A DNA stretch of 64,000 nucleotides, from positions 1,924 through 65,923 of the forward strand of contig DATHPO010000090.1 of NCBI GenBank assembly GCA_035483835.1. Direction: 5' to 3'. The position numbers and the translations under genes were made by a program. Every line of letters begins with the position of its first letter. The first letter of the stretch is position 1. This stretch comes from Terriglobales bacterium. Lineage in GTDB: Bacteria > Acidobacteriota > Terriglobia > Terriglobales > Acidobacteriaceae. The notes under the pieces were generated by a model. That model saw only the letters and a program-made list of their open reading frames with translations, did no database searches and was not told where the DNA came from. This document shows, in pieces, positions 37,682 to 59,463 of the stretch.

Positions 37682-37726
37682 TTAGGGTTTTCCCTAGTTG
37701 CCGCAAGAGTTCCGCTGATCTAGAAA
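37682..37726 (+). promoter_or_regulatory. palindrome motif TTAGGGTTTTCCCTAG + TTGCCG-N17-TAGAAA
   Basis: Followed only by a short OMP-like gene fragment, so it is possibly an orphaned promoter. Confidence 0.4.
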
Positions 37727-37749
37727 CCTGGAAGAGTTGCGATTCCAAC

Positions 37750-37850
37750 CCCGGCCAAAACTTCGACCTCGACTATTCGCTAACACAGGCCTTCTCGGTG
37801 AAAAGTGACTTGCGCCTGCAACTGGGACTGGTCGGCTATGGGCCGGTCAG
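37750..37850 (+). pseudogene. short fragment resembling an outer-membrane beta-barrel gene
   Basis: Translates to GQNFDLDYSLTQAFSVKSDLRLQLGLVGYG (alternating-strand pattern) with no start or stop context. Confidence 0.3.
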
Positions 37851-37851
37851 G

Positions 37852-37896
37852 TTAGGGATTTCCCTAGTTGTTGGTCTTACGCCACCCGCCTATAAG
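37852..37896 (+). promoter_or_regulatory. palindrome motif TTAGGGATTTCCCTAG + TTGTTG-N17-TATAAG, upstream of the MFS-pta-ackA-pfl operon
   Basis: Best -10 of all copies. Located about 210 nt before the MFS start. Confidence 0.55.
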
Positions 37897-37924
37897 GGAG
37901 GTGTGATGCGGTTTTTCTTTTGCC

Positions 37925-38062
37925 AGTGGGGAGAACCCCGAAGAACGCCGGTTTGATCTTGATACCACGATTGCCGCAATGGCATTGATGGCGAAGGAAA
38001 TGAACTCGAAATACAAAGAAACCTCGGAAGGCGGTCTGGCGGTATCCGAAGTGCTTTGCTAG
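37925..38062 (+). pseudogene. 3'-terminal relic of an L-serine dehydratase gene
   Basis: Translates to ..ENPEERRFDLDTTIAAMALMAKEMNSKYKETSEGGLAVSEVLC*. This resembles the conserved SdaA C-terminus (..GKDMNAKYRETSRGGLA..). No upstream body is present. Confidence 0.5.
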
Positions 38063-38109
38063 TTCAGGGACCGCGAGAACAGGGCACGCAAGCCAGTGAT
38101 GGTGCGCCG

Positions 38110-39387
38110 ATGGTATCCGTAACTTCAGCTCTCCGTGGCGACACCGGTGCCCACAGGAGGATACGGCTGGCAAGTGTCTCCTGGATTCTCGTGGCGGTTT
38201 ATTACTTCTATCAGTACGCGCTTCGCTCAGCGCCGTCCGTCATGATGCCTCAGCTGACGGATGCCTTTGGGCTCAGCGCACTCGGCGTGGCTTCACTCGT
38301 GGGGCTCTTCTACTACGGATATTCCCCGTTCAGTCTCGTGGCGGGCGTCGCCATGGACCGCTTAGGACCGAGCAAGGTCCTTCCGCTGTCCGCCGCTCTG
38401 GTCGGCATTGGGGCTCTGTTATTTGGATCGGGCAACACAGCCGCGGCAAGTGTGGGAAGGCTGTTGCAAGGAGCAGGCGGAGTGTTCGCGCTGGTCGGGG
38501 CGGTCTACATCGCTACGAAGAACTTCCCCGCGTCTCGAGCCGCCACTTTGATTGGTGCAACGCAGATGTTCGGCATGGCCGGCGGATCGGCTGGACAATT
38601 TGCCGTCGGCCCGTTGATCAGCAGCGGCATGTCCTGGAAAGTGTTTTGGATTGGAATGGGCTTGATTGGCTTGGCAATCGGCGCCGTTCTTTTTTTTCTG
38701 TTGCCGGGGGAATCGAAGGCAGAGGAGGGCGTCGGCAGCTTGAAAGCCACGACGCAAGCTCTTCTCATCGTGTTCAAAAATCCGCAATCAATCTTGTGTG
38801 GATTGATCGCGGGGTTTCTCTTCATGCCGACAACCATCTTCGACATGATTTGGGGCGTGCGTTATCTGCAGGAAGCGCACGGGTTCGATTTTGCTTCCGC
38901 AGTCATGCGATCGGCCACCGTTCCACTCGGATGGATTATCGGATGCCCATTGCTGGGATTTATTTCGGACCGGATTGGAAGACGAAAACCAGTAATCATC
39001 GGAGGCGCAGTGGTGCTTCTAGCCTGCTTAGGATGGATCCTCTTCGGCCCGGTCGATATTTTTCCCCCTTATCTACTTGGCCTGGTGGCTGGAGTGGCAT
39101 CGGGCGCTGCAATGCTGCCGTACACGGTGATCAAGGAAGTGAACCCGCCGCAGTTCGGTGGCACGGCAACAGGTGTGATCAACTTTCTCAATTTTACCTT
39201 CAGTGCTTTGTTGGCCCCGGTTTTTGGCGGCCTTCTTCAACGAATATCTGGTGGCGCTCAGCCCAAGCTGGCACATTACCAGGCGGCTTTTCTGCCGCTT
39301 CTGTTTGGCGTTGCGGCCGCGATTGTTTTCTCTTTTTTTCTCAAAGAGACCGGACCTGCGATACGACCCAGCGTGGCAAAGTCATGA
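38110..39387 (+). CDS. MFS transporter (first gene of the fermentation operon)
   Basis: 12-helix MFS pattern. Start chosen at MVSVTSALRG. A 10-nt gap precedes pta. Confidence 0.75.
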   Translation: MVSVTSALRGDTGAHRRIRLASVSWILVAVYYFYQYALRSAPSVMMPQLTDAFGLSALGVASLVGLFYYGYSPFSLVAGVAMDRLGPSKVLPLSAALVGIGALLFGSGNTAAASVGRLLQGAGGVFALVGAVYIATKNFPASRAATLIGATQMFGMAGGSAGQFAVGPLISSGMSWKVFWIGMGLIGLAIGAVLFFLLPGESKAEEGVGSLKATTQALLIVFKNPQSILCGLIAGFLFMPTTIFDMIWGVRYLQEAHGFDFASAVMRSATVPLGWIIGCPLLGFISDRIGRRKPVIIGGAVVLLACLGWILFGPVDIFPPYLLGLVAGVASGAAMLPYTVIKEVNPPQFGGTATGVINFLNFTFSALLAPVFGGLLQRISGGAQPKLAHYQAAFLPLLFGVAAAIVFSFFLKETGPAIRPSVAKS

Positions 39388-39396
39388 GGTGACGCG

Positions 39397-40353
39397 ATGA
39401 GTGTGCAAACGGCAAGCGCAACCCCTTTGGAAACTGGAACGGGAAAATACGAGGAATTGCTGGACCGGTGCAAAAGCCTGGACCCGGTCCCAACGGCAGT
39501 GGCCCACCCTTGTGATGCATCTTCCCTTAGCGGAGCGATCGAAGCAGCGGAACACGGATTGATTGTGCCAATTCTGGTTGGTCCTTTAGACAAAATAATC
39601 GCGATTGCGAAAGCTTCAGGAATCGATCTCAGCAAGGTTCAAATCGTCGATGCTCCTCACAGTCACGCCTCCGCAGCAAAGGCCGTAGAGCTTATTCGCG
39701 AAGGTGCCGCGGAAGTTCTGATGAAAGGGAGCTTGCATACTGACGAACTGATGTCGGCGATTGTTGCCCGCGATGGCGGCTTGCGCACGAGTCGCCGGAT
39801 CAGTCACGCATTCCTCATGGATATTCCCACCTATCACAAGGTTTTAATCGTCACAGACGGCGCGATCAATATTGCCCCTACGTTGGAAGATAAAGTTAAC
39901 ATCTGCCAGAACGCGATTGATCTGGCGATCGTGCTGGGTTGCGAAAAGCCCAAGGTGGCCATCCTGGCGGCAGTCGAAACAGTAACTTCGAAAATGCCCG
40001 CCACGATTGACGCTGCCGCACTTTGCAAGATGGCAGAGCGCGGCCAGATCACTGGAGGCATCCTCGATGGGCCGCTCGCTTTCGATAACGCAATCAGCAA
40101 GCAGGCTGCTATCACGAAAGGTATCCGCTCCGACGTAGCCGGTGATCCAGACATACTCTTGGTGCCCGATCTCGAGGCAGGCAACATTCTGGCGAAGCAA
40201 CTCAGTTTCCTTGCCAAGGCGGATAGCGCGGGCATGGTGCTGGGCGCAAGAGTACCAATCATTCTGACCAGTCGGGCGGATAGTGTGCGGTCCCGAATCG
40301 CCAGTTGCGCGGTCGCCACGTTGGTGGCTCACGCCCGGCGAATAGGAAGGTGA
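39397..40353 (+). CDS. pta: phosphate acetyl/butyryl-transferase (short Pta/Ptb type)
   Basis: 318 aa with a PTA_PTB-like sequence (..VLMKGSLHTDELM..ITDGAINIAP..DLEAGNILAKQ..). Located directly upstream of ackA. Confidence 0.8.
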   Translation: MSVQTASATPLETGTGKYEELLDRCKSLDPVPTAVAHPCDASSLSGAIEAAEHGLIVPILVGPLDKIIAIAKASGIDLSKVQIVDAPHSHASAAKAVELIREGAAEVLMKGSLHTDELMSAIVARDGGLRTSRRISHAFLMDIPTYHKVLIVTDGAINIAPTLEDKVNICQNAIDLAIVLGCEKPKVAILAAVETVTSKMPATIDAAALCKMAERGQITGGILDGPLAFDNAISKQAAITKGIRSDVAGDPDILLVPDLEAGNILAKQLSFLAKADSAGMVLGARVPIILTSRADSVRSRIASCAVATLVAHARRIGR

Positions 40354-40362
40354 GGACAACTC

Positions 40363-41550
40363 GTGACTTCCGACTTTGCTCTCGTGCTCAACGCCGGGTC
40401 ATCCAGTCTGAAGTTTTGCGTGTTCCGACGGCCAGAAACTCGGCAATGGCAACTGGATGCGAAAGGACAGATTGAGGGTATCGGGACGTCGCCACGGTTA
40501 TCGGTAAAAGATGGTGCCGGCGCACGGATCGCGGATGACAGTTTGGACACAACGGTGAGCGATGGTCGCAAGGCCGTCGACGCGTTGGCCGCCTGGCTCC
40601 ACGCCAAATATAGCGGGGGTAAAGTGTTGGGAGTCGGCCACCGCGTCGTTCACGGTGGCTCGCGTTTCGTAAGCCCAACGATCGTGAATCAGGAGACGCT
40701 GGCTCAATTACGTGAACTGATTCCTTTTGCACCCTTACATCAACCCTACAATCTGGCCGCGATCGAGGAAGTCTTTGAACGGCTGCCAGGCGTCCCGCAA
40801 GTTGCTTGCTTCGATACGAGCTTTCATTGCGGCCATTCGGCAGTTGCAGCACTCGTACCTTTGCCTAGAGACCTTTGCCGATCGGGTCTGCAGCGCTATG
40901 GATTTCACGGCTTGTCTTACGAATATATAGCTTCTATCTTGCCGGAAGTGGCGCCGGAGACTGCGCGGGGACGCGTCATCGTTGCCCATCTCGGGAGTGG
41001 CGCCAGTCTCTGCGCATTAAAAGAGGGGAAGAGTGTTGACAACAGTTTGGGCTTCACGGCGCTGGATGGACTTTGCATGGGTACCCGGCCGGGCGCTGTT
41101 GATCCTGGCGTCGTCTTGTATTTGTTTCAGGGCCTGGGACTCTCCGCTAAAGAGGTTGAAACCATCCTCTACAAGAAATCAGGGTTGCTCGGAATTTCCG
41201 GCATCAGCAACGACATGCGTGACCTGGTGGACCGGAAGGAACCGGAAGCGCGATTGGCAGTGGATTATTTCGTGTACCGCGCCGCCAAAGAGATCGGTGC
41301 GCTAGCCGCGGTGCTGGGTGGTGTTGATGGACTGGTGTTTACCGCCGGCATTGGAGAGAACTCGGTAGAAATTCGGCGGCGAATCTGCGAATCGTGTGCT
41401 TGGCTTGGCCTGAAACTCGACGCGGCAGCCAACGCTAGCCGAGGTCCGCGCATTTCCACTTCGCAGAGTAAGGTCTCGACGTGGGTAATCCCCACTAACG
41501 AGGAAATCATGATCGCGCGGCATACCGGAACTTTACTCGGAATCAGATAA
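40363..41550 (+). CDS. ackA: acetate kinase
   Basis: LVLNAGSSSLKF N-terminal signature, HRVVHGG, and length of 395 aa. Confidence 0.9.
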   Translation: MTSDFALVLNAGSSSLKFCVFRRPETRQWQLDAKGQIEGIGTSPRLSVKDGAGARIADDSLDTTVSDGRKAVDALAAWLHAKYSGGKVLGVGHRVVHGGSRFVSPTIVNQETLAQLRELIPFAPLHQPYNLAAIEEVFERLPGVPQVACFDTSFHCGHSAVAALVPLPRDLCRSGLQRYGFHGLSYEYIASILPEVAPETARGRVIVAHLGSGASLCALKEGKSVDNSLGFTALDGLCMGTRPGAVDPGVVLYLFQGLGLSAKEVETILYKKSGLLGISGISNDMRDLVDRKEPEARLAVDYFVYRAAKEIGALAAVLGGVDGLVFTAGIGENSVEIRRRICESCAWLGLKLDAAANASRGPRISTSQSKVSTWVIPTNEEIMIARHTGTLLGIR

Positions 41551-41583
41551 GCCTGCACCGTTGAGCACCAAAGGAGGATCGCC

Positions 41584-43854
41584 ATGGCTGCTACCGCATC
41601 GGAGAATATGGTCCAAGTGAACACGACTTCTGCGTGGGCGGGATTTACGTCGGGACTTTGGCACAAAGAAATCAACGTTCGTGATTTCATCCAGCAAAAC
41701 TATGAGCCATACGAGGGCGACGGCTCCTTCCTGGCACATGCAACAGAGCGCACAAAAAAACTGTGGGCGGGGTTAAACGAACTCTTTGTGGAGGAGCGCA
41801 AGAAAGGCGTGCTCGACATCTCTCAAGTTCCCAGTTCGATCACGTCGCATGCGCCGGGTTACATCGATCGCGAGAATGAAATCGTTGTTGGCCTTCAGAC
41901 TGAGGCGCCTTTGAAGCGCGCCATTATGCCGAACGGCGGTTTTCGAATGGTTCTCAGCGCCCTGAAGGCATATGGGTACGATCCGGACCCGCAGGTTGTC
42001 GAGACTTTCACGAAGTATCGAAAGACGCACAATCAGGCCGTATTCGATGCCTACACCGCGGACGTGAGGCGATGCCGCAGCTCTCACATCCTGACCGGTC
42101 TTCCCGACTCCTACGGACGCGGCCGCATTATCGGCGACTACCGCCGGGTTGCACTATATGGGGTCTCCCGGCTCATCGAGCAAAAGCAGGTAGAGAAGCG
42201 CCGCCTTGATGCGGCAATGTCGACTGAAGATATTATTCGTGACCGTGAAGAGCTGAGTGAACAGATTCGCTCTCTCCAGGAGCTGCAGCTGATGGCCTCT
42301 ACTTACGGGTTCGACATCTCGGGCCCGGCTCGTGATGCGCGGGAGGCTGTGCAGTGGCTTTATCTCGCCTACCTGGGGGCGGTTAAAGAACAAAACGGTG
42401 CTGCGATGTCCCTCGGGCGGACGTCGACATTTCTTGATATTTACTTCGCACGTGATCTTAAGGCTGGAGCGATTACCGAGCAACAGGCGCAAGAGACCAT
42501 CGATGATTTCGTCATCAAGCTGAGGATCGTTCGATTCTTGCGAACACCGGAATACGACGAGCTCTTCGCTGGTGATCCCACCTGGATTACTGAATCGATT
42601 GCCGGGGTTGGAGACGACGGGCGGCCTCTGGTAACGAAGACGAGCTTTCGGTTTCTTCAAACCCTCTACAACCTTGGTCCTGCGCCGGAACCGAATCTAA
42701 CGATCTGGTATTCGCCCCGGCTGCCCGACGGATTTCGCGATTTTGCTACGAAGGTTGCGATCGACACGAGTTCCATTCAATTTGAAAGCGACGAAATCAT
42801 GCGGAGTGCGTTGGGAGATGACGGAGCCATTGCGTGTTGCGTATCGCCGATGCTCTTAGGCAAACAGATGCAGTTCTTTGGAGCACGCGCCAATCTCGCT
42901 AAGTGCCTCCTCTATGCCATCAACGGCGGTCGCGACGAGATCACCGGAGACCAGGTAGGCCCGACAGGTGCCGTCAAAGATGAATACCTGGATTTCAACG
43001 AGGTGATCGACAAGTTCGAAAAAATGATGGAGTGGCTCGCAGGCGTCTATGTCAACGCCATGAACATCATTCACTATATGCACGACAAGTACGCTTACGA
43101 GCGTCTTGAGATGGCACTACACGACTACGCGCCTTTAAGGACGATGGCTTTTGGCATGGCGGGGATGTCCGTAGTTGCCGACAGCCTATCAGCAATACGC
43201 TACGCGAAAGTTCGGGCGATACGCGATGACACCGGGCTTGTGATCGATTATCAGACCGAAGGCGATTTCCCACGGTTTGGCAACAACGATAATCGGGTTG
43301 ACCACCTCGCCTCCTGGGTCGTCAGCACGTTCATGGGCAAGCTGAGAAAATATCCTACTTATCGCAAAGCGGTTCACACCCAATCGATTCTGACAATCAC
43401 TTCGAACGTGGTCTACGGCAAGAGCACCGGCAACACTCCCGACGGAAGGCGTCGCGGGGAGCCATTTGCTCCTGGCGCCAACCCAATGCACGGCCGCGAC
43501 ACGCACGGTATCCATGCCTCGGCTGCTTCCGTCGCCAAGATTCCGTATCGCGATGCGGCCGACGGCATTTCGCTGACGGCCACGTTTCTTCCTGAAGGCC
43601 TTGGAAGAGTCGCAGAAGATCGCATCAAAAACCTGCGAAGTATGCTTGACGCATTCTTCAGTGTCACCGGTTATCACATGAATGTAAATGTGCTAAATCG
43701 CGAAACGCTTCTGGATGCGATGGACCATCCGGAAAAATACCCCCACCTGACGATTCGTGTCTCCGGGTATGCAGTCAACTTCGTGCGGCTGACTCGCGAG
43801 CAGCAGATGGATGTGATCAACCGCACGTTCCACGGAGAGCAGGTAACGCTGTGA
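41584..43854 (+). CDS. pflB: formate C-acetyltransferase (pyruvate formate-lyase)
   Basis: 756 aa, active-site CC (GAIACCVSP), C-terminal glycyl-radical motif RVSGYAVNF. Confidence 0.95.
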
Positions 43855-44690
43855 ATCAAACACAACACGCCATTCCGTTGGAGGCGAAAAGCCCTTTTGA
43901 ACTACGCGTCAATTTGAGCGCGGGCATGCCGGAAACGGATGTGCGGACTGCCCTGGCCACGGGAGAAATGGGATTCCTTCACTCCTTTACTACTGGCTCG
44001 ACGGTCGATGGACCAGGAGTGCGTGTGGTTGGTTGGACGACCGGCTGCCAGTTCCGATGCCTCTATTGTCATAACCCCGACACTTGGAATATGAGCAACG
44101 GCATCCCCGTAACTTTAGCTCGCGCAACCGAGGAGCTGCGGAAGTATCGTCAAGGGTTGAAAGTCATGTCGGGTGGCTTCACGTTGAGTGGCGGAGAACC
44201 ACTCCTACAGGATCGGTTTGTCGTCAAACTGCTAGCCACCGCGAAAAAGATGGGTATCCATACCGCGCTAGATACCAACGGTGCTCTTGGGGCGCGGCTT
44301 TCTGATGCGGACTTGGAGCACGTTGATCTCGTGCTGCTCGATCTCAAAAGCTGGGAGCCAGAACTTCACCGCAGGCTTACTGGCATGGAGGTTGGCCCCG
44401 TCCTGGATTTCGCCCGCCGATTGGCGGCTGACAGAATACCAATCTGGATACGCTTCGTACTCGTTCCTGGATTTACGGATGGAAGTGAGAACATTGCCCA
44501 GATTGCAAGGTTTTCCGCCGACCTGGGAAACGTGCAACGAGTCGACGTTCTGCCCTTCCATCAAATGGGCCGATTCAAATGGAAGGAGCTTAAACTCGAC
44601 TACACCCTTGAAGATGTCCAACCTCCGGGTACCCAAGCGGTCGAACAAGCCTGCGCGCAGTTTCGTGCGGTTGGGCTTAAGGCGTTCTGA
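43851..44690 (+). CDS. pflA: pyruvate formate-lyase activating enzyme (radical SAM)
   Basis: [12 protein letters not shown] CxxxCxxC cluster. 4-nt overlap with pflB. Confidence 0.9.
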
Positions 44691-44797
44691 CCAACGCCGC
44701 AGGGAGTCCTCAATCTCTCGCAGATATGAGTGTCGTCGCCGTACCTATCCGCAACCGTTCGCGGGCACACGCGCCATGACTACGGGCCTTCCTAGCT

Positions 44798-45616: not shown

Positions 45617-45636
45617 TAAAAGTCGCTCCTCCATCT

Positions 45637-45681
45637 ATCTTTGCTCTTCGCTTTCGCTTCCTCAACTGGGGAAATCCCTAG
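45637..45681 (-). promoter_or_regulatory. palindrome motif CTAGGGATTTCCCCAG + TTGAGG-N17-AAAGAT, upstream of ppk2
   Basis: The motif is clear. The -10 is weak, and the predicted TSS would fall on the RBS, so promoter geometry is uncertain here. Confidence 0.35.
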
Positions 45682-45737: not shown

Positions 45738-46925
45738 TCAAAATACGACCTTGATGATACGCATGATGAGTTCTTCCGGAGAGAAAATCGTGAGCAGGAG
45801 AGGCAAGAGCGGGGCCGCGGTAGCGGCGGCCAATCGGGCGATGTCCTCGAGTCCGAAGGGGACCGGGCGCATCTCGCGCACCATGGCGTAGCTGTTGCCA
45901 AGATCAGCGAGCGACTGGATATCGCCAGATCCGAGGAGTTCGTCAGAAGGGGCAGGATCGCGCACGACCCATTTCTGTTCGAAGGTCTCGACATAGCGCT
46001 GAGCGAGCAGGCCGTAGCCGGCCAGTCCCTTTCTTTTTGTGCGAGCCATTCGCGGAGTGAACATCAAGAGCGGGCCGAGAAGGGCGAGGACAAAAAAGGC
46101 TATAAAGCCTCCGGCCTGTAACTTGAAGGACAGCAGGCTCTCCCCTCGGTAAAGGACTCGACTGGCAACCAAGCCGGCGAGCATGGCACCTTGAGCAAAA
46201 AGTATCGGGCCGAAGGCGTAGGCACTTTTGCCCAGGAAGGCGAGACCGGCGCAGCGATCTGGATGAGTCGAAATGAGGTTCAGATTGATTCTGGAGACCC
46301 GCCACAGAAAACGAAACCAAATGAAAAGCCTCATGTACCAGCGCAGAAGGATGAACTGCAGGATGGGGATGCTGACGAAGACATACCAAAAACCAGCAGG
46401 TGTAAGGTGCCAGCGCCCGCCGGGATTGGCATACCAGGTTGAAACCTCGACCGGGATCCGAATGTGCCACAGCCACAGGCCAATCGTGTAAACAAGAATC
46501 AAAAGCCCGATCTCCGCGAGGACGGAATTTCGCAACCTCATGGCTGCGCGGATAGCATTGTCAAAGCGGCTCCGGTCTTGGGGCAAAACTATTCGCCGCT
46601 CGACGAAGGTGCGCACAACGGGGCGCGTTCGGGCATGAACCAGCAGTTCAGCGGCGATGAGGACGGGAAGTGCTATGAGAAATCGGACATGTACTTCAAC
46701 GTCGTGAAGGAAGGAGAGCCGACGGGCGCTTCCCGCCGAGAAACCTTGGGCGGTGGTGAGGAGCAACAATGGCAACCATGCGACCGCGGTAATAATAAGC
46801 AGCCGGCGATGCAAGAGTTCTAAGCCATCTCCAGTGAGATGGGATTTCCGAAAGAGCTGAAAGATCGGCCCGCCCAGCACCAAGGAAAAATCGAGCGGTT
46901 CCTCGAGGATATCGGGTTGCGTCAT
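45738..46925 (-). CDS. polytopic membrane protein of unknown function
   Basis: Start chosen at MTQPDILEEP. About eight hydrophobic helices and no motif I recognise. Confidence 0.5.
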   Translation of the reverse strand: MTQPDILEEPLDFSLVLGGPIFQLFRKSHLTGDGLELLHRRLLIITAVAWLPLLLLTTAQGFSAGSARRLSFLHDVEVHVRFLIALPVLIAAELLVHARTRPVVRTFVERRIVLPQDRSRFDNAIRAAMRLRNSVLAEIGLLILVYTIGLWLWHIRIPVEVSTWYANPGGRWHLTPAGFWYVFVSIPILQFILLRWYMRLFIWFRFLWRVSRINLNLISTHPDRCAGLAFLGKSAYAFGPILFAQGAMLAGLVASRVLYRGESLLSFKLQAGGFIAFFVLALLGPLLMFTPRMARTKRKGLAGYGLLAQRYVETFEQKWVVRDPAPSDELLGSGDIQSLADLGNSYAMVREMRPVPFGLEDIARLAAATAAPLLPLLLTIFSPEELIMRIIKVVF

Positions 46926-46974: not shown

Positions 46975-47019
46975 ACCCTAGGTCTGGCTCGATGTCTGAG
47001 CAACTAGGACAAAGTACGG
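46975..47019 (-). promoter_or_regulatory. right-half motif copy (..TTTGTCCTAG) + TTGCTC-N17-TAGGGT
   Basis: Only the promoter-proximal half is retained. Located about 50 nt upstream of the ATG at 46925. Confidence 0.35.
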
Positions 47020-52185: not shown

Positions 52186-52230
52186 TTTGTACTGCAGCGC
52201 AGAGCGCACCGCCACTAGGGAAACCCCTAA
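52186..52230 (-). promoter_or_regulatory. palindrome motif TTAGGGGTTTCCCTAG + TGGCGG-N17-TACAAA, upstream of the DUF3300 gene
   Basis: Divergent partner of the 52304 copy. Confidence 0.45.
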
Positions 52231-52303
52231 GTGCAGGGTTGAGCTTCAATCTGAAGTGATCGGCCTCAATTTCGGCTGCTCACCGAGTTCCGATTGCTGT
52301 GAA

Positions 52304-52349
52304 CTAGTGATTTCCCCAGTTGAGAGGTATGGGGGCCAAGACGTAGCAT
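52304..52349 (+). promoter_or_regulatory. palindrome motif CTAGTGATTTCCCCAG + TTGAGA-N18-TAGCAT, upstream of 52511 OMP gene
   Basis: One mismatch in the left half. The predicted leader is about 155 nt. Confidence 0.45.
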
Positions 52350-52510
52350 CTTCGCGAAGGGAGATATATCGCGCTCTTAGCACCGAGAGGGTTACGGGAC
52401 TCCGGCCTATCCGAAGGAAGGGATGCAACGGGCATCCTGGTGCGAAGAACCGACGACGGTGAAAGCCGCACGCATCTCATGCCTCGTTTATAAAAAAAGA
52501 GCGAGGGAGG

Positions 52511-53164
52511 ATGAAAACCACGTCGCATTCCGCGATGCTCGCGCTAGTCTTTGTTCTCGCTGGCCAAGTCTTGGCCCAGACTCCGACACGCCAGACGCCG
52601 AGCGCAGATGACGCCGATGCAAATCAGTGGGAGTTCTCCCTAGCGACATCTGGCTATCTGGTTCCAGATGACCAATCTTACGGTTCTCCGATCTTTACCG
52701 CCGATCATCAATGGCTTCACTTTGAAGCCCGTTACAACGAGGAGTATCTACAGACTGGATCATTGTGGGCGGGCTATAACTTCAGCATCGGTCACAAGCT
52801 CGTGTTCGAAGCCACGCCAATGTTCGGCGTCGTGTTTGGAAGTACGACAGGGGTTGCGCCAGGCTACGAACTCTCGCTCACCTACAAGCGGGTTGAGCTT
52901 TCGGCTCAGGGAGAGTACGTATTTAATGCGGACGATCGGAAGGCCAGCTATTTCTACACCTGGGACGAACTGGTCTACTCGCCGACGGACTGGTTCCACG
53001 CCGGTCTCGTGTCCCAACGAACCAGAGACTACCACACCAATCTCAACGTGCAGCGTGGATTCTCAGTCGGGGTTACACACAAGAAAGTGGATTTCACGAC
53101 CTTTGTATTCGATGCCGGCTGGACCGACCCCACGGTGGTCCTCGCCCTTACCTTCAGGTTTTGA
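52511..53164 (+). CDS. small outer-membrane beta-barrel protein (unknown family)
   Basis: Signal peptide (..VLAGQVLAQ), alternating strands, C-terminal ..LALTFRF aromatic terminus. Confidence 0.5.
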   Translation: MKTTSHSAMLALVFVLAGQVLAQTPTRQTPSADDADANQWEFSLATSGYLVPDDQSYGSPIFTADHQWLHFEARYNEEYLQTGSLWAGYNFSIGHKLVFEATPMFGVVFGSTTGVAPGYELSLTYKRVELSAQGEYVFNADDRKASYFYTWDELVYSPTDWFHAGLVSQRTRDYHTNLNVQRGFSVGVTHKKVDFTTFVFDAGWTDPTVVLALTFRF

Positions 53165-53185
53165 GCAAGACCATCTTATGGTTAG

Positions 53186-53231
53186 CTAGGGGTTTCCCTA
53201 GTCGACCAACTCCAGCTACGAGAATTAGAAT
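53186..53231 (+). promoter_or_regulatory. palindrome motif CTAGGGGTTTCCCTAG + TCGACC-N18-TAGAAT, upstream of 53270 gene
   Basis: The predicted TSS is about 32 nt before the ATG, upstream of the GGAGAAGGAG RBS. Confidence 0.5.
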
Positions 53232-53269
53232 TTCACCTACGGGCCTGCACGGAGAAGGAGAAAACGAAG

Positions 53270-53884
53270 ATGCGCACAAATGCAAACAAATCCACCATTC
53301 GCAAATCCATGTACGGCGGATTCCTATTCATCATCCTGCTACTGATAACCACGCTCGCCTTTTCCCAGGATGACAGAAAAATAGAAACCATCGATTCCAC
53401 CGCAATGGGCACCAGCACGCAGATGGGTAGCATAATTGGTGTGAAGGTGACCATCTATCAGTACTCTACGGACGAAGATAGACAACTTCTCGTTGATGCC
53501 TTCAAGAAGGGCCAGAATCAGGGCTTGGTCGATGCACTTAGCAAGATGAAGTCCGTCGGCCGCATCGCCATCACCGGCACAGTGGGCTACGACCTCAGTT
53601 ACATTCGCCTTATCCCCACTCCGACGGGTCGCAAGATACGCTTTGTCACCAACCGATTGATCAGATTCGGCGAGGCCTATTACAACACCCGAACTATGGC
53701 ATACAACTTGACAGTGGGCGAATTCGACATTGTCGATGCTGACACGGATAAAAGCTCCGGTGTTCTTTATCCGGCTTCCCAGCTAATTATTAATAAAGAT
53801 GGGCAGCTGGAGTTCCAACTCAATAGAAATCCCTGGAAGCTTGTCAACATTATCGATTGGCACAAGGCGGGTACGGCCAAGTAG
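53270..53884 (+). CDS. secreted protein of unknown function, AT-rich relative to neighbours
   Basis: TM/signal segment FLFIILLLITTLAFSQ and a strong RBS. No recognisable motif. Confidence 0.45.
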   Translation: MRTNANKSTIRKSMYGGFLFIILLLITTLAFSQDDRKIETIDSTAMGTSTQMGSIIGVKVTIYQYSTDEDRQLLVDAFKKGQNQGLVDALSKMKSVGRIAITGTVGYDLSYIRLIPTPTGRKIRFVTNRLIRFGEAYYNTRTMAYNLTVGEFDIVDADTDKSSGVLYPASQLIINKDGQLEFQLNRNPWKLVNIIDWHKAGTAK

Positions 53885-53977
53885 AGATGGTTGAAAACTA
53901 ACTGGGCTGACATTTGCATCTGTTTTCAACGACCAAGAAAGCAAGGCATCACGAGTTGTCCATGTGCTGTTCTAAGC

Positions 53978-55093: not shown

Positions 55094-55172
55094 CGATAGG
55101 CTCCCTTATTTGAGGAGTTGTGTCATCGAGCGTTTACACATCTTTTATTTATTCCGAAAAAATACTCGCCGC

Positions 55173-56750: not shown

Positions 56751-56791
56751 TGGTAATGCAACCGCTCCTTCTCAGTTCTTCGTGACTACCG

Positions 56792-57847
56792 CTATTTCCA
56801 ACCCACCGATGCCGGAGAAAACAGGTTGTAGTGCAGCTTGTCGCTGACGTAGTCGATCACCTCTTGCGCCTTGACGCTGTTTCCAGCGTCATCCAGCGGT
56901 GGTGCAAAGACGACAATTGCTCCTTTTCCAGGGACGATTGCTACAATCCCGCCGCCGACTCCACTCTTCGCAGGGAGTCCCACATCCCACGCCCAACCAC
57001 CAGAACCGTCGTAAAGACCGGCCATCATCATGGTGCTGAGGATGTGAGGAACGTCTTCCGATTTGATCACCTGTTCTCCTGTGGCAGGGTTGATCCCGTT
57101 ATTTGCGAGCGTTGCGCCCATCCGCGCGAGCTGGGTGGCGTTTACGCCAACCGAACACTGCTTGGTGTAGATATCGACCGACTCAAATGGATCAGCGTAA
57201 ATCCGCTCATATTTGGCCAAGAGCATGGAGAGCGCTTTGTTGCCGGTGTTGGTGGCGGCTTCGGATTTGTAGACCTCGTCAATCAACGTCAACTTTTCTC
57301 CGGCCGCGCGGCTGTAGAAATCCAGGATCTTAGTCCATTTTTCATCCGCATCCTTGCCGGAGATCAGGCTAGTTGTGGCGATGGCACCTGCATTAACGAA
57401 AGGGTTGCCGGTGTGTGTCGGCATGTCCACGACCGCCACTGGAGAGTTAAAGGGGCGTCCCGTAGGCTCGGAGCCTATTTTTTGGAAGACCTTCTCGGCT
57501 CCCAGCGCTTCCATTGCAAGCGCCAACGTGTAAACCTTGGAAATCGACTGGATGGAGAATGAATATTTCACGTCCCCCAGTGTGACAACCTGGTTGTCGG
57601 TGGTGACAATCGCGATCCCGAAAAGCTTGGAATCCACTTGTGCGAGATAGGGAATATAATCAGCGTTCTTCCCGCGGGTTTCATTCTTGAACTTGTCATA
57701 GGCCTCTTGAACCACCGCCGCCACGACCTCCCGGCGAGGCGCCACAGGGCTTCGCGATCCTTGTGCCAGCGCCGGTATCGGAAGCAAAGACGGAACAATG
57801 ATTGTTGCGACAAGAAGTAACTTTACAGCCCAGTTCCTATTGAACAT
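56792..57847 (-). CDS. glsA: glutaminase A with signal peptide
   Basis: ADYIPYLAQVD...FSIQSISKVYTLALAME serine-dependent glutaminase core. N-terminal ..LLPIPALAQG. Confidence 0.9.
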   Translation of the reverse strand: MFNRNWAVKLLLVATIIVPSLLPIPALAQGSRSPVAPRREVVAAVVQEAYDKFKNETRGKNADYIPYLAQVDSKLFGIAIVTTDNQVVTLGDVKYSFSIQSISKVYTLALAMEALGAEKVFQKIGSEPTGRPFNSPVAVVDMPTHTGNPFVNAGAIATTSLISGKDADEKWTKILDFYSRAAGEKLTLIDEVYKSEAATNTGNKALSMLLAKYERIYADPFESVDIYTKQCSVGVNATQLARMGATLANNGINPATGEQVIKSEDVPHILSTMMMAGLYDGSGGWAWDVGLPAKSGVGGGIVAIVPGKGAIVVFAPPLDDAGNSVKAQEVIDYVSDKLHYNLFSPASVGWK

Positions 57848-57879
57848 TGACGCTTTCCTCTCTTTCCGCCAAGCCAGAG

Positions 57880-59352
57880 TTATAGAGTTGGGGATTTGAA
57901 ACTCTTATCCCAGTCAAACTTGAACGAGAACTGCATCCGATAATCGTTGGCATTGAATCCGTTGCTGAAGTTCACCCGGCGGCCGAACTGAAACTCACCA
58001 CCCATCGTGACCCTTGGGATCGGATGGTAGAGCAGGTTCCCGACCGCGTAGTCACCCTGGTGATAGTCCGACGGAAGCTGTGCGTTTGAGTTCTGAATGT
58101 CAACCAGCGAGTAACCGGCTGAACTGGTGAAGTGCTCGCTCCAGGTGTGATCGATGAATGCCACGACGCCTAACACCGGTAAAGTAACGCCTTTGATGGG
58201 CACGCGCGAGCCCGGAGGATTGTTCTGGATACCGATGTCCACCGGCGCATCGTTCATGTAATTCTCAATGCCGGAGCCGTAAACAAATGCCAGCTTTGCA
58301 ACATTCTTTTTTGACAACTTGAGATTGGAAGTCAGGTTGAAGCCCCAGCCCACAGCACTGCCACCGAGATTGATCGGGTTGCCGCTGGTGTCAACCCACC
58401 CGATTTTCCGAACAATGCCGGCCATCTGTACATAGCCCCAGTCTCTGTCGATCCGCGCATTCCCCGAGAGATCCGGGAAATTGAACCGCGGCCGTATGTT
58501 GCTCAGCTCGATACGGTCGGCATAAACGCCTTGGTCACCGCTGGCGCCGGGTCTTTCCAGGGCAATCGTGACGCCGCCTCTCTTGCTTCGGATCGGCATC
58601 CAACGAATCTGCACATTGCGGAAGAACACCATCCCGTTCGGGCCCCAGTACTCCAGCGTGTTCGGGAAGACGCCTATGTCCATGAACGGGCTCCAGGTCT
58701 GTCCCGCTCCAAACTGGCCCAGCTCTCCGTAAGCATGCCGCAGGCGGAAAGTCGTTTGGCCGGCATCAACTCCGGTCCCAAATAGTTCGAATTCGAATAC
58801 CGTGTTCAGATCGCCGTACGGGGTAGGCGTGGAGGACTTCACCCCGAAGCGGGTTTGTCGCACGCTGGCATAGACATTTCCACTCGGCGCAAACTCATTG
58901 TGGAAGGACGGCAACTGGGTGGGACGGACAACGTCGAACCAGTTCGGATTCACCTGCCCGAAGTCATATCCGGAGTCGAGCATCACGAACCCGTAAAAGT
59001 TGACGCTGTTCTGCCGCTCTGTGATTTCACCTTCCAGCGGTACGGTTCCAGCCTGGGGCTGAGCGATAATCGCCTCCGAGGGAACTGCGATCATTGGCTC
59101 CTGCGGGGCAGGCGTCTGTTGTCCTTCGGCCTGGCCTTGCCCAACGAGGGGGGCCGCAGGAGGAGCCGGCGTCCCCTCAAGCGCTTTGATCTCGCCCTTG
59201 ACCTCGGTCATCATCTGATCCAACTGCTGCAGCTTGTTCTTCAGTTGTTCGATATCTGCATTGCGCTGATCCTGGGATTGGGCTGCAGCAGACTGAATCC
59301 AGATGGCGGAAAGAGCGAACAGCAGTAGTGCAATGAAGCTATTTTTTTTCAT
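57880..59352 (-). CDS. outer-membrane porin with N-terminal coiled coil (DcaP-like architecture, tentative)
   Basis: Signal peptide, IEQLKNKLQQLDQMMTEVKGEIKAL heptads, Pro-rich linker, beta-barrel region. Confidence 0.55.
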   Translation of the reverse strand: MKKNSFIALLLFALSAIWIQSAAAQSQDQRNADIEQLKNKLQQLDQMMTEVKGEIKALEGTPAPPAAPLVGQGQAEGQQTPAPQEPMIAVPSEAIIAQPQAGTVPLEGEITERQNSVNFYGFVMLDSGYDFGQVNPNWFDVVRPTQLPSFHNEFAPSGNVYASVRQTRFGVKSSTPTPYGDLNTVFEFELFGTGVDAGQTTFRLRHAYGELGQFGAGQTWSPFMDIGVFPNTLEYWGPNGMVFFRNVQIRWMPIRSKRGGVTIALERPGASGDQGVYADRIELSNIRPRFNFPDLSGNARIDRDWGYVQMAGIVRKIGWVDTSGNPINLGGSAVGWGFNLTSNLKLSKKNVAKLAFVYGSGIENYMNDAPVDIGIQNNPPGSRVPIKGVTLPVLGVVAFIDHTWSEHFTSSAGYSLVDIQNSNAQLPSDYHQGDYAVGNLLYHPIPRVTMGGEFQFGRRVNFSNGFNANDYRMQFSFKFDWDKSFKSPTL

Positions 59353-59418
59353 AAGGACTCCTGCTTGCCAGGGCTTATTCGCATACCGCTGCCAGTAGAC
59401 GTCGGGTCAGCTACGGGT

Positions 59419-59463
59419 ACTCTTATGCATGAGGAGAGTGGAAGCAATTAGGGAAATCCCTAA
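59419..59463 (-). promoter_or_regulatory. palindrome motif TTAGGGATTTCCCTAA + TTGCTT-N16/17-TAAGAGT, upstream of porin-glsA-porin operon
   Basis: Located about 100 nt upstream of the ATG at 59352. Confidence 0.45.

What the first reader, a model, noticed from the sequence alone, without database searches (positions are those of the whole stretch)
37682..59463. Genes behind the motif look like one physiological regulon (fermentation, energy reserve, envelope, amide-N scavenging)
These transcription units sit downstream of motif copies:
- MFS-pta-ackA-pflB-pflA (37852 copy).
- ppk2 (45666).
- A membrane protein next to phosphoketolase (47004 half copy).
- DUF3300-DUF2950, possibly reading into xfp (52215).
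- Two small secreted/OMP genes (52304, 53186).
- porin-glsA-porin-amidohydrolase (59448).
- Outside this span: the ompA-like gene, yceI-crp-receiver, a YidE-type transporter and two receiver-only proteins.
In model bacteria, pyruvate formate-lyase, Pta-AckA, Dcu/AnsB-type functions and polyphosphate metabolism respond to oxygen or energy limitation. A shared cis-element would tie them into one programme in a lineage usually regarded as aerobic.
Basis: inference. Interest (0 to 1): 0.7.

Follow-up and report, generated by a model that had tools for sequence, protein, structure and literature searches.

The report
Conserved promoter motif marks acidobacterial fermentation regulon
A 16-base palindrome placed just upstream of about fifteen promoters ties fermentation, amino-acid breakdown, polyphosphate and envelope genes of an uncultured soil acidobacterium into one conserved gene programme, most likely switched on by a two-component regulator that senses a molecule outside the cell rather than oxygen.

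Summary
The near-palindrome YTAGGGATTTCCCYAG occurs 15 times plus one half copy between 18.7 and 61.6 kb (0.3 expected by chance). Every copy is intergenic.

The element is polar. It abuts a -35-like TTG, and a -10-like TAnnnT follows 17 bp later, which puts its centre near -43.5, the position of a class II activator site. The same layout recurs in 245 copies from related soil Acidobacteriota, upstream of the same gene families. Other genomes add aspartase, serine dehydratase, formate dehydrogenase and Dcu. "One regulon with a fermentative/anaerobic-energy theme" is therefore supported.

The regulator is probably not the neighbouring Crp/Fnr-type protein, which looks like a target. The best candidate is the NarL-type response regulator at 30097-30867 with the HisKA_3 kinase at 59505-61517.
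- Six of six kinase homologues chosen blind to the motif are bracketed by motif copies.
- A motif follows the regulator's stop codon in 26 of 34 orthologues, against 1 of 13 for crp.

The kinase sensor is a periplasmic solute-binding fold, so oxygen as the direct signal is unsupported. Binding, activation and the inducing condition are inferred, not shown.

This is a new member of a known kind, in a poorly studied phylum.

The parts
18746..18761 (-). Motif copy. Promoter reads leftward into ompA-like/DUF5666 (18642-17707), probably continuing into NarL-type RR_a (17642-16911) and orf851 (16842-14287).
   Evidence: 34.8 bits; -35 TTGTGC, 17 bp, -10 TAAGGT.
18799..18814 (+). Motif copy. Promoter reads rightward into yceI (18872-19486), crp-family (19550-20230) and REC-only receiver150 (20334-20786).
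   Evidence: 33.8 bits.
20891..20906 (+). Motif copy (perfect consensus). Promoter for the aspartate:alanine antiporter (21153-22832) and a SWEET-like protein (22864-23256).
   Evidence: 35.5 bits. Orthologous YidE/AspT-crp operons carry a motif upstream in L001-L003 and L005.
30892..30907 (+). Motif copy 25 bp after the stop of RR_c. Promoter for REC-only receiver170 (31017-31529) and probably DUF481 (31661-32716).
   Evidence: The RR-motif-receiver arrangement is conserved.
34299..34314 (.). Motif copy, direction ambiguous. Its polarity points right, but the better -35/-10 (GTGTGG, 17 bp, TAACAT) points left to the phospholipase C-like gene (34241-32907).
   Evidence: 25.9 bits.
34527..34542 (.). 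Motif copy, direction ambiguous. A rightward reading would serve the frameshifted K+-channel-like ORF (34735-35077) and the AI-2E-family transporter (35105-36187).
   Evidence: 30.2 bits. AI-2E orthologues are motif-linked in L097 and L154.
37555..37570 (-). Motif copy inside a duplicated promoter segment. Reads leftward into the DUF5666 protein (37451-37110) and probably the bestrophin-like gene (37013-36234).
   Evidence: 34.8 bits. Bestrophin orthologues are motif-linked in L035 and L060.
37682..37697 (+). Motif copy. Upstream member of a tandem promoter pair ahead of the MFS-pta-ackA-pflB-pflA unit.
   Evidence: 31.2 bits.
37852..37867 (+). Motif copy. Proximal promoter (-10 TATAAG) for MFS (38056-39387), pta (39397-40353), ackA (40363-41550), pflB (41584-43854) and pflA (43851-44690).
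   Evidence: 34.8 bits. In L080 and L062 one motif drives sdaA-MFS-pta-ackA-pflB-pflA.
45666..45681 (-). Motif copy. Promoter for ppk2 (45616-44798).
   Evidence: 33.8 bits. The same arrangement occurs in L118. Elsewhere ppk2 is the third gene of a motif-driven DUF3300-DUF2950-ppk2 operon.
47004..47019 (-). Half copy (only the promoter-proximal TCCTAG-TTG half is kept) ahead of the unknown membrane protein (46925-45738).
   Evidence: It scores below 8 bits with the matrix. Orthologues carry a full motif in L009 and L118.
52215..52230 (-). Motif copy. Promoter for DUF3300 (52120-50693) and DUF2950 (50683-49658), possibly reading on into xfp (49563-47125), which has no site of its own.
   Evidence: 28.8 bits. 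DUF3300 orthologues 10/20 with a motif. xfp has its own motif in L114.
52304..52319 (+). Motif copy. Promoter for a secreted protein of unknown family (52511-53164).
   Evidence: 26.8 bits.
53186..53201 (+). Motif copy. Promoter (-10 TAGAAT) for a secreted protein of unknown family (53270-53884).
   Evidence: 27.0 bits. Orthologues 6/7 with a motif.
59448..59463 (-). Motif copy in the divergent region between the DcaP-type porin operon and the sensor kinase. Polarity points to DcaP (59352-57880), glsA (57847-56792), a porin-like orf (56750-55173) and an amidohydrolase (55093-53978).
   Evidence: 30.6 bits. DcaP orthologues 11/12 with a motif. The same divergent layout occurs in 5 of the 6 blind-picked loci (L151-L153, L155 with DcaP; L154 with an AI-2E transporter).
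61597..61612 (+). Motif copy 80 bp after the kinase stop. Promoter for REC-only receiver141 (61694-62119).
   Evidence: 31.1 bits. Orthologues 23/24 with a motif, 7/7 in loci not selected by the motif.
30097..30867 (+). RR_c, a NarL/FixJ-family response regulator (REC + GerE HTH; recognition helix SEKTVEFHKHHIM). Best candidate for the protein that binds the motif.
59505..61517 (+). HK670, a HisKA_3 sensor kinase (true start probably near 59628): TM helix, periplasmic type I solute-binding fold of about 320 aa, TM helix, HisKA_3, HATPase_c. Probable cognate kinase of RR_c.
   Evidence: It is adjacent to an RR_c orthologue in most other genomes.
26853..29949 (+). Paralogous two-component pair directly upstream of RR_c: HK802 (solute-binding domain + PAS + HisKA_3; 26853-29261) and RR_b (29251-29949). 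Possible second input.
   Evidence: The HK802-RR_b-RR_c-motif-receiver170 order is conserved in L074 and L112.
19550..20230 (+). Crp/Fnr-family regulator (no FNR Cys cluster, no cAMP-binding Arg; helix SRFTASR). Read as a regulon member and second-tier regulator; rival candidate for the binder.

Best explanation
The 16-bp near-palindrome CTAGGGA-TT-TCCCTAG is the DNA site of a dimeric transcription activator. It sits directly against a weak -35 (TTG) of an ordinary sigma-70-type promoter and is centred near -43.5.

The most likely binder is the phosphorylated NarL/FixJ-type response regulator RR_c (30097-30867). Its probable kinase is the membrane HisKA_3 kinase HK670 (59505-61517), whose periplasmic domain has a solute-binding (Venus-flytrap) fold. 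The paralogous pair HK802/RR_b may provide a second input.

When the kinase is triggered, RR_c~P would bind and recruit RNA polymerase at about 15 promoters in this window, covering up to 32 of the 37 genes between 14.3 and 62.1 kb.

The proposed outputs are:
- Substrate-level ATP formation: xfp, pta, ackA, pflBA.
- Polyphosphate use: ppk2.
- Amino-acid deamidation and exchange: glsA and the aspartate:alanine antiporter here; aspartase, asparaginase, serine dehydratase and dcu in other genomes.
- Outer-membrane and periplasmic proteins: DcaP-type porins, OmpA-like, YceI, DUF3300/DUF2950.
- Second-tier regulators: the Crp-family protein and RR_a.
- REC-only paralogues of RR_c, which would act as phosphate sinks giving negative feedback.

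Shown: the motif, its polarity and fixed promoter geometry, its conservation upstream of orthologues, and its tight linkage to the HK670/RR_c genes. Inferred: binding, activation rather than repression, the ligand, the physiological trigger, and the role of the REC-only proteins.
For: **The motif is real and intergenic.**
- 15 sites against 0.29 expected.
- All sites are intergenic, P about 1e-15.
- Matrix scores are 26-35 bits with no intermediate class.

**Promoter geometry.**
- Across 245 unique copies the consensus is YTAGGGATTTCCCYAG-TTGyg-17 bp-cCTAaaaT.
- The -10 signal (T 0.73, A 0.71) was not part of the search pattern.
- It persists in the 93 copies that do not match the seed.
- TAnnnT at the correct offset occurs in 95 copies on the polar side against 26 on the other side.

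**Regulon conservation.**

**Regulator assignment.**
- In loci chosen only for carrying the motif, RR_c orthologues (27) and HK670 orthologues (19) are among the commonest neighbours. Close crp orthologues appear 0 times.
- 318 kb of control loci gave 2 weak hits.
- A co-oriented motif follows the RR_c stop in 26/34 orthologues (8/11 in loci not selected by the motif). The figure is 1/13 for crp and 0/24 for three control genes.
- The RR_c recognition helix is nearly invariant across orthologues of 59-89% identity.
- A 16-bp inverted repeat in a 7-2-7 layout is the geometry known for NarL-family dimers (established knowledge).

**Sensor.** Two TM helices flank a domain of about 320 aa. The model has pLDDT 82. 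The best PDB matches are PF04392-family solute-binding proteins: 3LFT with L-Trp, CD0873 and 3LKV.

**REC-only proteins.** They are 34-45% identical to the RR_c receiver domain and keep the DD/D/T/K residues.
Against: - No binding or expression data exist.
- Transcription start sites are unknown, so -43.5 rests on a consensus -10.
- Crp orthologues of 70% identity or more also have the motif nearby in 9 of 10 loci, often upstream of their own operon. Linkage alone therefore does not exclude Crp.
- The copy next to the kinase always points away from it, so autoregulation of the HK-RR operon is not evident.
- In this window RR_c is not adjacent to HK670; it follows HK802-RR_b, so the kinase-regulator pairing here is inferred from other genomes.
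- The strictly conserved, polar central TT is not explained by a symmetric dimer.
- Copies 34299 and 34527 do not fit the polarity rule well.
- One pta-pfl cluster (L151) has no motif.
- Metagenome loci were selected by the motif plus TKG, which biases some counts.
Confidence: 0.6

Rival explanations
1. The Crp/Fnr-family protein encoded at 19550-20230 binds the palindrome, read as a 5-4-5 site TAGGG-N4-CCCTA with FNR-like spacing. It would activate the promoters from a class II position and autoregulate its own yceI-crp-receiver operon.
For: - The 5-N4-5 spacing and the near -41.5/-43.5 position are classic for FNR-type activators (established knowledge).
- crp lies in a motif-driven operon here and in L001-L003, L005, L006 and L008.
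- Its recognition helix (SRFTASR) lacks the Glu that reads the FNR/CRP core, which is compatible with a novel specificity.
Against: - No close crp orthologue appears in 120 motif-selected loci covering 693 kb. Only four 31-33% identical paralogues appear, against 27 RR_c orthologues.
- crp orthologues with the same helix in L010-L012 and L026 have no canonical motif within 10 kb, although regulon-type genes are present.
- A motif directly adjoins crp in only 2/15 upstream cases and 1/13 downstream cases.
- The searches found far fewer crp homologues (112) than HK670 homologues (2598 at E <= 1e-20), while the motif is widespread.
Confidence: 0.15
2. The palindrome is an operator for a repressor, either RR_c or another protein. 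The repressor would keep these promoters off by blocking polymerase access to the -35 region, and induction would be by release.
For: The site abuts the -35 hexamer, a place where a bound protein could also occlude sigma region 4. Sequence alone cannot give the sign of regulation.
Against: - The position is fixed to the base pair relative to -35 and -10 in hundreds of promoters, and the polarity is fixed too. That is typical of activators needing a defined contact with polymerase. Repressor operators usually vary in position.
- Beyond TTG the -35 hexamers are poor, as in activator-dependent promoters.
Confidence: 0.1
3. The 19-bp element is part of the promoter for an alternative sigma factor, acting as an extended -35, and is not a transcription-factor site.
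For: The element is polar and sits at a fixed distance from a downstream hexamer.
Against: - It is a 16-bp inverted repeat, which points to a dimer. ECF-type -35 elements are short and asymmetric (established knowledge).
- The downstream elements look like ordinary TTG and TAnnnT with a 17-bp spacer.
- No sigma-factor gene lies in the window or recurs near the motif.
Confidence: 0.03
4. The copies are a non-regulatory repeat: a REP/MITE-like element, or an RNA hairpin such as a terminator or processing site.
For: - As a palindrome it can fold into a 6-bp stem with a 4-nt loop.
- Two copies (18746 and 37555) were spread by a segmental duplication of about 440 bp.
Against: - Apart from that one duplication the flanks are unrelated.
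- There is no U-tract and no Rfam match.
- The bases themselves are 97-100% conserved. The frequent T13-to-C change is not compensated at its pairing partner A2, so pairing is not what is selected.
- Copies lie upstream of orthologous genes across genomes, with a promoter at fixed spacing.
Confidence: 0.02

Closest known systems
NarX/NarL-type two-component regulation with 7-2-7 heptamer sites (E. coli)
   Same: - A HisKA_3 kinase with a periplasmic sensor between two TM helices.
- A REC + GerE/LuxR-HTH regulator; NarL is among the best PDB matches.
- A high-affinity site of 16 bp, built as two inverted heptamers separated by 2 bp.
- Control of anaerobic energy genes, including formate dehydrogenase.
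   Different: - The heptamer sequence is unrelated: CTAGGGA against TACYYMT.
- The sensor is a solute-binding fold, not the NarX four-helix nitrate sensor.
- Sites sit at one fixed position next to the -35 instead of at variable upstream positions.
- No NCBIfam NarL-family equivalog cut-off is reached.
DosS/DosT-DosR (DevR) hypoxia and dormancy regulon of Mycobacterium tuberculosis
   Same: - A NarL-family regulator with HisKA_3 kinases.
- A GGG...CCC-containing palindrome whose promoter-proximal copy adjoins the -35.
- A few dozen genes for survival without respiration, many of unknown function and clustered near the regulator genes.
   Different: - The Dos box is a 20-bp palindrome (TTSGGGACTWWAGTCCCSAA) with the G and C triplets 4 bp further apart.
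- DosS and DosT sense O2, NO and CO through cytoplasmic haem-GAF domains, whereas HK670 has a periplasmic solute-binding domain.
- DevR ranks only 13th among the PDB matches of RR_c.
FNR/ArcA anaerobic modulon of E. coli (pfl, ackA-pta, dcuB, aspA, ansB, fdn)
   Same: - Nearly the same functional gene set is co-regulated.
- Activator sites are class II-like, with 5-4-5 spacing formally compatible with FNR boxes.
   Different: - There is no FNR-type protein: the Crp-family protein lacks the Cys cluster.
- There are no intergenic TTGAT-N4-ATCAA boxes.
- The linked regulator is a two-component NarL-type protein, and the sensor faces the periplasm.
BvgS/BvgA and EvgS/EvgA (Venus-flytrap sensor kinases with NarL-family regulators)
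   Same: A periplasmic solute-binding (Venus-flytrap) domain serves as the kinase input. The NarL-family output binds inverted heptads next to the promoter and activates by contacting polymerase.
   Different: BvgS and EvgS are hybrid phosphorelay kinases with type II binding-protein domains. HK670 is a plain HisKA_3 kinase with a type I PF04392-like domain. The regulons are unrelated (virulence and acid resistance).

Membership tests
NarL/FixJ (LuxR-type HTH) response regulators - RR_c | N-terminal receiver domain with the conserved phospho-acceptor residues. | tested here: met
   Pfam Response_reg 7.8e-24. The DD, D, T and K positions are aligned.
NarL/FixJ (LuxR-type HTH) response regulators - RR_c | C-terminal GerE/LuxR-type helix-turn-helix domain. 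| tested here: met
   Pfam GerE 7.9e-17. Full-length matches to VraR, NarL, RcsB, FixJ and DevR structures.
NarL/FixJ (LuxR-type HTH) response regulators - RR_c | Membership of a named, characterised orthologue group (NarL, MctR, UvrY/GacA, FixJ and others). | tested here: not met
   Every NCBIfam equivalog hit is far below its cut-off. The best is MctR at 138.6 bits against a cut-off of 300.
HisKA_3 (NarX/DesK/LiaS-type) histidine kinases - HK670 | HisKA_3 dimerisation/phospho-acceptor domain followed by HATPase_c. | tested here: met
   Pfam HisKA_3 3.4e-10 and HATPase_c 2.9e-11. DesK and VraS are the best PDB sequence matches.
Class II (polymerase-contacting) activator site | Site at a fixed position overlapping or abutting the -35, centred near -41.5. 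| tested here: inconclusive
   The spacing to the consensus -35 and -10 is fixed in 245 copies, which puts the centre near -43.5. No transcription start site has been mapped.
Class II (polymerase-contacting) activator site | The bound protein activates transcription. | not testable with these tools
   Needs reporter, in vitro transcription or mutant data.
NarL 7-2-7 binding sites | Two inverted heptamers separated by 2 bp (16 bp in all). | tested here: met
   CTAGGGA-TT-TCCCTAG.
NarL 7-2-7 binding sites | Heptamer consensus TACYYMT. | tested here: not met
   The heptamer is CTAGGGA / TCCCTAG.
DosR (DevR) regulon | 20-bp Dos box, TTSGGGACTWWAGTCCCSAA. | tested here: not met
   The element is 16 bp, with GGG and CCC separated by 4 bp rather than 8. 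The Dos box consensus is taken from memory.
DosR (DevR) regulon | Haem-GAF sensor kinase. | tested here: not met
   The HK670 input is a periplasmic solute-binding fold.
FNR regulon | Crp/Fnr-family regulator with an N-terminal Cys cluster for a [4Fe-4S] centre. | tested here: not met
   The Crp-family protein has a single Cys at position 44 and no Cys cluster.
FNR regulon | TTGAT-N4-ATCAA boxes upstream of target genes. | tested here: not met
   The only two 1-mismatch matches both lie inside genes.
PF04392-type (type I) periplasmic solute-binding domain - HK670 sensor | Two alpha/beta lobes with a hinge, and structural similarity to family members. | tested here: met
   AF2 model pLDDT 82, pTM 0.81. 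Foldseek gives 3LFT, 6HNJ/6HNI and 3LKV at E about 1e-11, TM 0.54-0.70. PF04392 is recorded for some homologues and for HK802.
PF04392-type (type I) periplasmic solute-binding domain - HK670 sensor | Identified ligand. | not testable with these tools
   The amino-acid ligands of the nearest structures are only a lead; sequence identity to them is 12-15%.

The most novel reading that the evidence does not exclude
Terriglobia carry a lineage-wide, DosR-like programme for surviving without respiration. It would be written in an unusually uniform promoter code (palindrome, TTG, 17 bp, TAnnnT). It would be gated not by oxygen itself but by an extracellular small molecule, perhaps an amino acid or a fermentation substrate, read by Venus-flytrap kinases. 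Induced REC-only decoys would provide the feedback. If so, one short motif would let the anaerobic and fermentative activity state of abundant, uncultured soil Acidobacteriota be predicted from MAGs and read out from metatranscriptomes.
Probability: 0.3. Interest if true: 0.7.

Novelty: new member of a known kind. Interest (0 to 1): 0.5.

Why it matters
Acidobacteriota are among the most abundant soil bacteria. Almost nothing is known about their transcriptional regulation, and genetics is scarce.

This analysis yields a sharply defined cis-element, a named candidate regulator and kinase, and a regulon of fermentation, amino-acid deamination, polyphosphate and envelope genes. Together they give a concrete, testable handle on how these organisms switch metabolism in soils and peats with fluctuating redox conditions.

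The analysis also changes the hypothesis in three ways:
- The control is probably two-component and solute-sensing, not FNR-like oxygen sensing.
- The Crp-type gene is a target.
- The proposed negative control gene is unsafe.

The kind of system, a NarL-type activator with promoter-proximal palindromes, is well known. The interest lies in the lineage, the regularity of the code and the regulon content, not in a new mechanism.

Tried and rejected
1. **RNA explanation.** Rfam at gathering thresholds found nothing over 17-64 kb. Hairpin folding is trivial for a palindrome, and base changes are not compensatory.
2. **Canonical FNR/CRP boxes as a second code.** None is intergenic.
3. **A candidate 'Crp box'.** GGAAACTTGTACAATTACCAGTTTCC lies upstream of crp in L010 and L011, but it occurs nowhere else, so it was dropped.
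4. **Weaker motif copies ahead of xfp, the regulator genes or the TonB-type receptor.** The weight matrix finds none.
5. **A co-varying, altered palindrome in distant genomes.** L010-L012 and L026 gave only a half-degenerate variant, CTAGCATTTTTCCTAG-TT, upstream of xfp in L010 and at the matching position in L011. That is too little for a covariation argument.
6. **Literature.** The exact motif string appears in no searchable paper, and no paper describes this regulator or regulon. The A. capsulatum nanoxia transcriptome (PMC11636273) reports pta and xfp up and one sensor kinase, ACP_1638, induced 84-fold. I could not fetch that genome, so I cannot say whether it carries the motif or whether ACP_1638 is an HK670 orthologue.
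7. **Naming the unknown members.** The membrane protein 45738-46925, orf217, orf204 and orf525 gave no Pfam or NCBIfam family.
8. **First ORF picker.** My first downstream-ORF picker was too crude and was replaced.

Full report
**1. What is in the sequence**

The 'motif' of the finding is a 16-bp near-palindrome, consensus CTAGGGATTTCCCTAG.
- Allowing 3 mismatches it occurs at 15 distinct places: 18746, 18799, 20891, 30892, 34299, 34527, 37555, 37682, 37852, 45666, 52215, 52304, 53186, 59448 and 61597. There is also one chance hit inside a gene, against 0.29 expected.
- The 'half copy' at 47004 keeps only one arm.
- A weight matrix built from copies in other genomes recovers the same 15 sites at 26-35 bits, with no intermediate class. 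Shuffled windows never exceed 12 bits.
- All 15 sites lie outside genes in sequence that is 87-90% coding (P about 1e-15).
- None lies in the first 18.7 kb.

Two are sharpened. The YidE-type transporter passes the equivalog cut-off for an aspartate:alanine antiporter, and PPK2 passes that for polyphosphate kinase 2.

**2. The element is polar and part of a promoter**

After orienting each copy, one side is always followed by TTG. About 17 bp further on there is a TAnnnT-like hexamer.

I pooled 245 non-identical copies from related genomes. The consensus is YTAGGGATTTCCCYAG-TTGyg-(17 bp)-cCTAaaaT.
- The -10 signal (T 0.73, A 0.71) was not in any search pattern.
- The 93 copies that do not match the metagenome seed show the same TTG (T 0.89, G 0.85) and the same -10.
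- An exact TAnnnT at the right offset occurs in 95 of 233 copies on the polar side and 26 on the other side. Polarity is therefore strong but not absolute, and a minority of sites may serve divergent promoters.

With the -10 at -12 to -7, the palindrome centre falls at about -43.5 and directly abuts a weak -35. That is the layout of an activator that touches RNA polymerase. This step is inference, because no start site is mapped.

Polarity assigns each copy to a unit (see the parts list). By same-strand adjacency with gaps under 135 bp, up to 32 of the 37 genes between 14287 and 62119 lie in motif-linked units. The exceptions are a TonB-type receptor and the regulator genes themselves.

Copies 34299 and 34527 fit the rule poorly. 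By polarity they would converge. By -35/-10 quality they would diverge, towards the phospholipase C-like gene on one side and a K+-channel-like ORF plus AI-2E transporter on the other.

**3. It is not an RNA element or a mobile repeat**

- Rfam finds nothing.
- The hairpin is only what any palindrome gives. The bases are 97-100% conserved, and the common T13-to-C change is not compensated at A2. Sequence, not pairing, is under selection.
- Flanks are unrelated. The one exception is a duplication of about 440 bp at about 97% identity, which copied the motif, promoter and first ~113 codons of the ompA-like gene (18330-18767) to 37140-37576.

**4. Where it occurs**

Relatives of the window's Crp-family protein come only from Acidobacteriota (Terriglobia/Acidobacteriaceae) MAGs. 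Together with nine genome loci, these hold 240 copies with 2 or fewer mismatches.

**5. The same genes lie behind it elsewhere**

First genes downstream of the motif fall into recurring families:

| Family | Copies |
|---|---|
| REC-only receiver141 type | 18 |
| DUF3300 | 16 |
| REC-only receiver170 type | 11 |
| DcaP porins | 10 |
| OmpA/DUF5666 | 8 |
| orf204 | 5 |

AspT, DUF481, the membrane protein, bestrophin-like, AI-2E, YceI, AckA, Xfp, PPK2 and Dcu also recur.

Families absent from the window also recur:
- Aspartase/fumarase-class lyase (5).
- TAT-signal FdnG-type molybdoenzyme (4).
- L-serine dehydratase (3).
- Carbonic anhydrase (3).
- MscS (3).
- AsmA-like (4).
- DUF4136 (4).
- Sortase (4).
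- ATP synthase subunit a.
- A NapC/NirT multihaem cytochrome.
- A STAS protein.

Orthologues with a co-oriented motif within 400 bp upstream are:

| Gene | All loci | Loci not chosen by the motif |
|---|---|---|
| DcaP | 11/12 | 6/7 |
| receiver141 | 23/24 | 7/7 |
| orf204 | 6/7 | 3/3 |
| DUF3300 | 10/20 | 2/3 |
| receiver170 | 8/13 | 0/1 |

Other genes sit inside motif-driven operons.
- glsA sits about 1.65 kb behind the DcaP promoter in 6 of 8 cases.
- ppk2 is the third gene of a motif-driven DUF3300-DUF2950-ppk2 operon in L039 and L104.
- dcu follows a motif-driven aspartase gene in L099 and L106.
- In L080 and L062 a single motif drives sdaA-MFS-pta-ackA-pflB-pflA.

One pta-pfl cluster (L151) has no site.

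So the claim of one regulon is supported. Its theme is ATP formation without respiration (phosphoketolase, Pta-AckA, PFL, polyphosphate), amino-acid deamidation, deamination and exchange, formate handling, and remodelling of the envelope and periplasm. An acid-stress reading cannot be excluded, given the ammonia-releasing enzymes and the antiporter.

**6. Which protein reads it**

Two regulator types adjoin copies in the window: a Crp/Fnr-family protein (19550-20230) in a motif-driven operon, and NarL-type response regulators with HisKA_3 kinases. The site geometry fits both, as 5-4-5 or as 7-2-7.

Linkage separates them.
- In the 120 loci chosen only for the motif (693 kb), orthologues of RR_c (30097-30867) appear 27 times and of the kinase HK670 (59505-61517) 19 times. 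The usual order is HK-RR-[motif]-receiver-[motif]-DUF3300-DUF2950. Close crp orthologues appear 0 times.
- Forward test: six HK670 homologues of 61-78% identity, chosen only for contig length, all have one motif in the divergent region upstream of the kinase and another right after the RR gene, pointing at a REC-only gene.
- 318 kb of control loci gave 2 weak hits.
- A co-oriented motif follows the RR_c stop in 26/34 orthologues (8/11 in unselected loci). The figure is 1/13 for crp and 0 for three control genes.
- The RR_c recognition helix (LSEKTVEFHKHHIM) is nearly invariant across these orthologues.

Evidence bearing on crp:
- crp orthologues of 70% identity or more do have the motif nearby in 9 of 10 loci, often upstream of a YidE-crp operon.
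- More distant crp orthologues with the same helix have no canonical motif within 10 kb.
- The searches found far fewer crp homologues than HK670 homologues (112 against 2598 at E <= 1e-20).

I therefore read crp as a conserved target and second-tier regulator, and RR_c as the binder. My confidence in that assignment is about 0.6. My confidence that this is a conserved activator-site regulon is about 0.85.

**7. What the system senses**

- HK670 has a TM helix (70-94), a periplasmic domain of about 320 aa, a second TM helix (418-438), then HisKA_3 and HATPase_c.
- The periplasmic domain models with pLDDT 82. It is a type I solute-binding (Venus-flytrap) fold. The nearest structures are PF04392-family proteins solved with L-Trp or another bound ligand: 3LFT, CD0873 and 3LKV (E about 1e-11).
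- HK802, encoded directly upstream of RR_b and RR_c, has the same kind of domain plus a cytoplasmic PAS domain.
- The Crp-family protein has no FNR cysteine cluster and lacks the cAMP-binding Arg.

Nothing here points to direct oxygen sensing. The direct input is more likely an extracytoplasmic small molecule. Redox could enter through the PAS domain or through the second-tier regulators, but that is speculation.

**8. Feedback**

The REC-only proteins are the most conserved targets. They are paralogues of the RR_c receiver domain (45% and 34% identity) and keep the phospho-acceptor residues. They are encoded immediately behind the RR or kinase gene under their own motif. The simplest reading is an induced phosphate sink or competitor that damps the signal. 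This is inference.

**9. Comparison with known systems**

- It works like NarL-family, class II-type activation, and in content it resembles the E. coli FNR/ArcA modulon and the mycobacterial DosR regulon.
- It is not a member of those regulons. The heptamer differs from NarL's, the box is shorter than the Dos box, the sensor is not haem-GAF, there are no FNR boxes, and there is no Fe-S Crp/Fnr protein.
- RR_c and HK670 do meet the domain definitions of the NarL/FixJ and HisKA_3 families, but they reach no named orthologue group.

**10. Literature**

- The motif string and the regulon are not in the searchable literature.
- Trojan et al. 2024 (PMC11636273) show that A. capsulatum shifts to a respiro-fermentative state at 0.1 uM O2, with pta and xfp up and one sensor kinase up 84-fold. 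They describe no cis-element.
- PMC9599518 shows Acidobacteriaceae dominating anoxic peat as predicted fermenters.

Fermentation genes in this lineage are therefore not a surprise. The regulatory code is what is new.

**11. Verdict**

- Observation: confirmed.
- Interpretation: partly supported. One conserved regulon with a fermentative, anaerobic-energy theme is supported. Oxygen as the signal and FNR-like logic are not.
- Novelty: new member of a known kind.
- Interest: 0.5.

Noticed in passing
window 18330-18767 and 37140-37576 (minus strand): A segmental duplication of about 440 bp at about 97% identity. It begins a few bp upstream of the motif and copies the promoter, 5'UTR and first ~113 codons (signal peptide plus DUF5666 domain) of the ompA-like gene. 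The result is a short stand-alone DUF5666 gene ahead of the bestrophin-like gene.
   Followed up: partly
window 34735-35077: A K+-channel-like gene (TVGYGD selectivity filter) is split over two reading frames, 34735-34929 and 34817-35077. This is either a frameshifted pseudogene or an assembly error. It lies between motif 34527 and the AI-2E transporter.
   Followed up: no
window 14287-62119: The region is a 'regulon island'. Up to 32 of its 37 genes lie in motif-linked units, and the exceptions are the regulator genes and one TonB-type receptor. No copy occurs in 1-18700. Similar clustering around the HK-RR pair is seen in L151-L156.
   Followed up: partly
window, all 15 sites: Site strength is bimodal: 26-35 bits or nothing. 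This is unusual for a transcription-factor regulon, which normally shows a graded tail of weak sites. The strictly conserved, non-palindromic central TT, which points at the promoter, is also unexplained.
   Followed up: partly
L054 (about 8211 on the minus strand) and L068 (1597-): FdnG-type molybdoenzyme ORFs with a TAT signal lie behind the motif and stop at about 220 aa. This is as expected if an in-frame TGA encodes selenocysteine.
   Followed up: no
L010 9865 and L011 9868; L010 11433 and L011 11424: These two more distant genomes share an inverted repeat, GGAAACTTGTACAATTACCAGTTTCC, upstream of crp that is found nowhere else. They also share a half-degenerate motif variant, CTAGCATTTTTCCTAG-TT, which lies upstream of xfp in L010.
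   Followed up: partly
window 26852/26853: The longest ORFs of the TonB-type receptor (minus strand) and of kinase HK802 (plus strand) start on adjacent bases. At least one start must be mis-set, and the real divergent promoter region is hidden inside these ORFs.
   Followed up: no
window 62139-64000 (minus strand): The dcuA/B and asparaginase genes run off the window end, so their promoter is not visible. In other genomes dcu and ansB lie in motif-driven operons behind an aspartase gene (L099, L106, L155). They probably belong to the regulon too.
   Followed up: partly
L156 7771-8915 and 21234-22301: Transposase genes (rve, IS110 type) are inserted inside the regulon cluster next to the HK-RR pair of one genome.
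   Followed up: no
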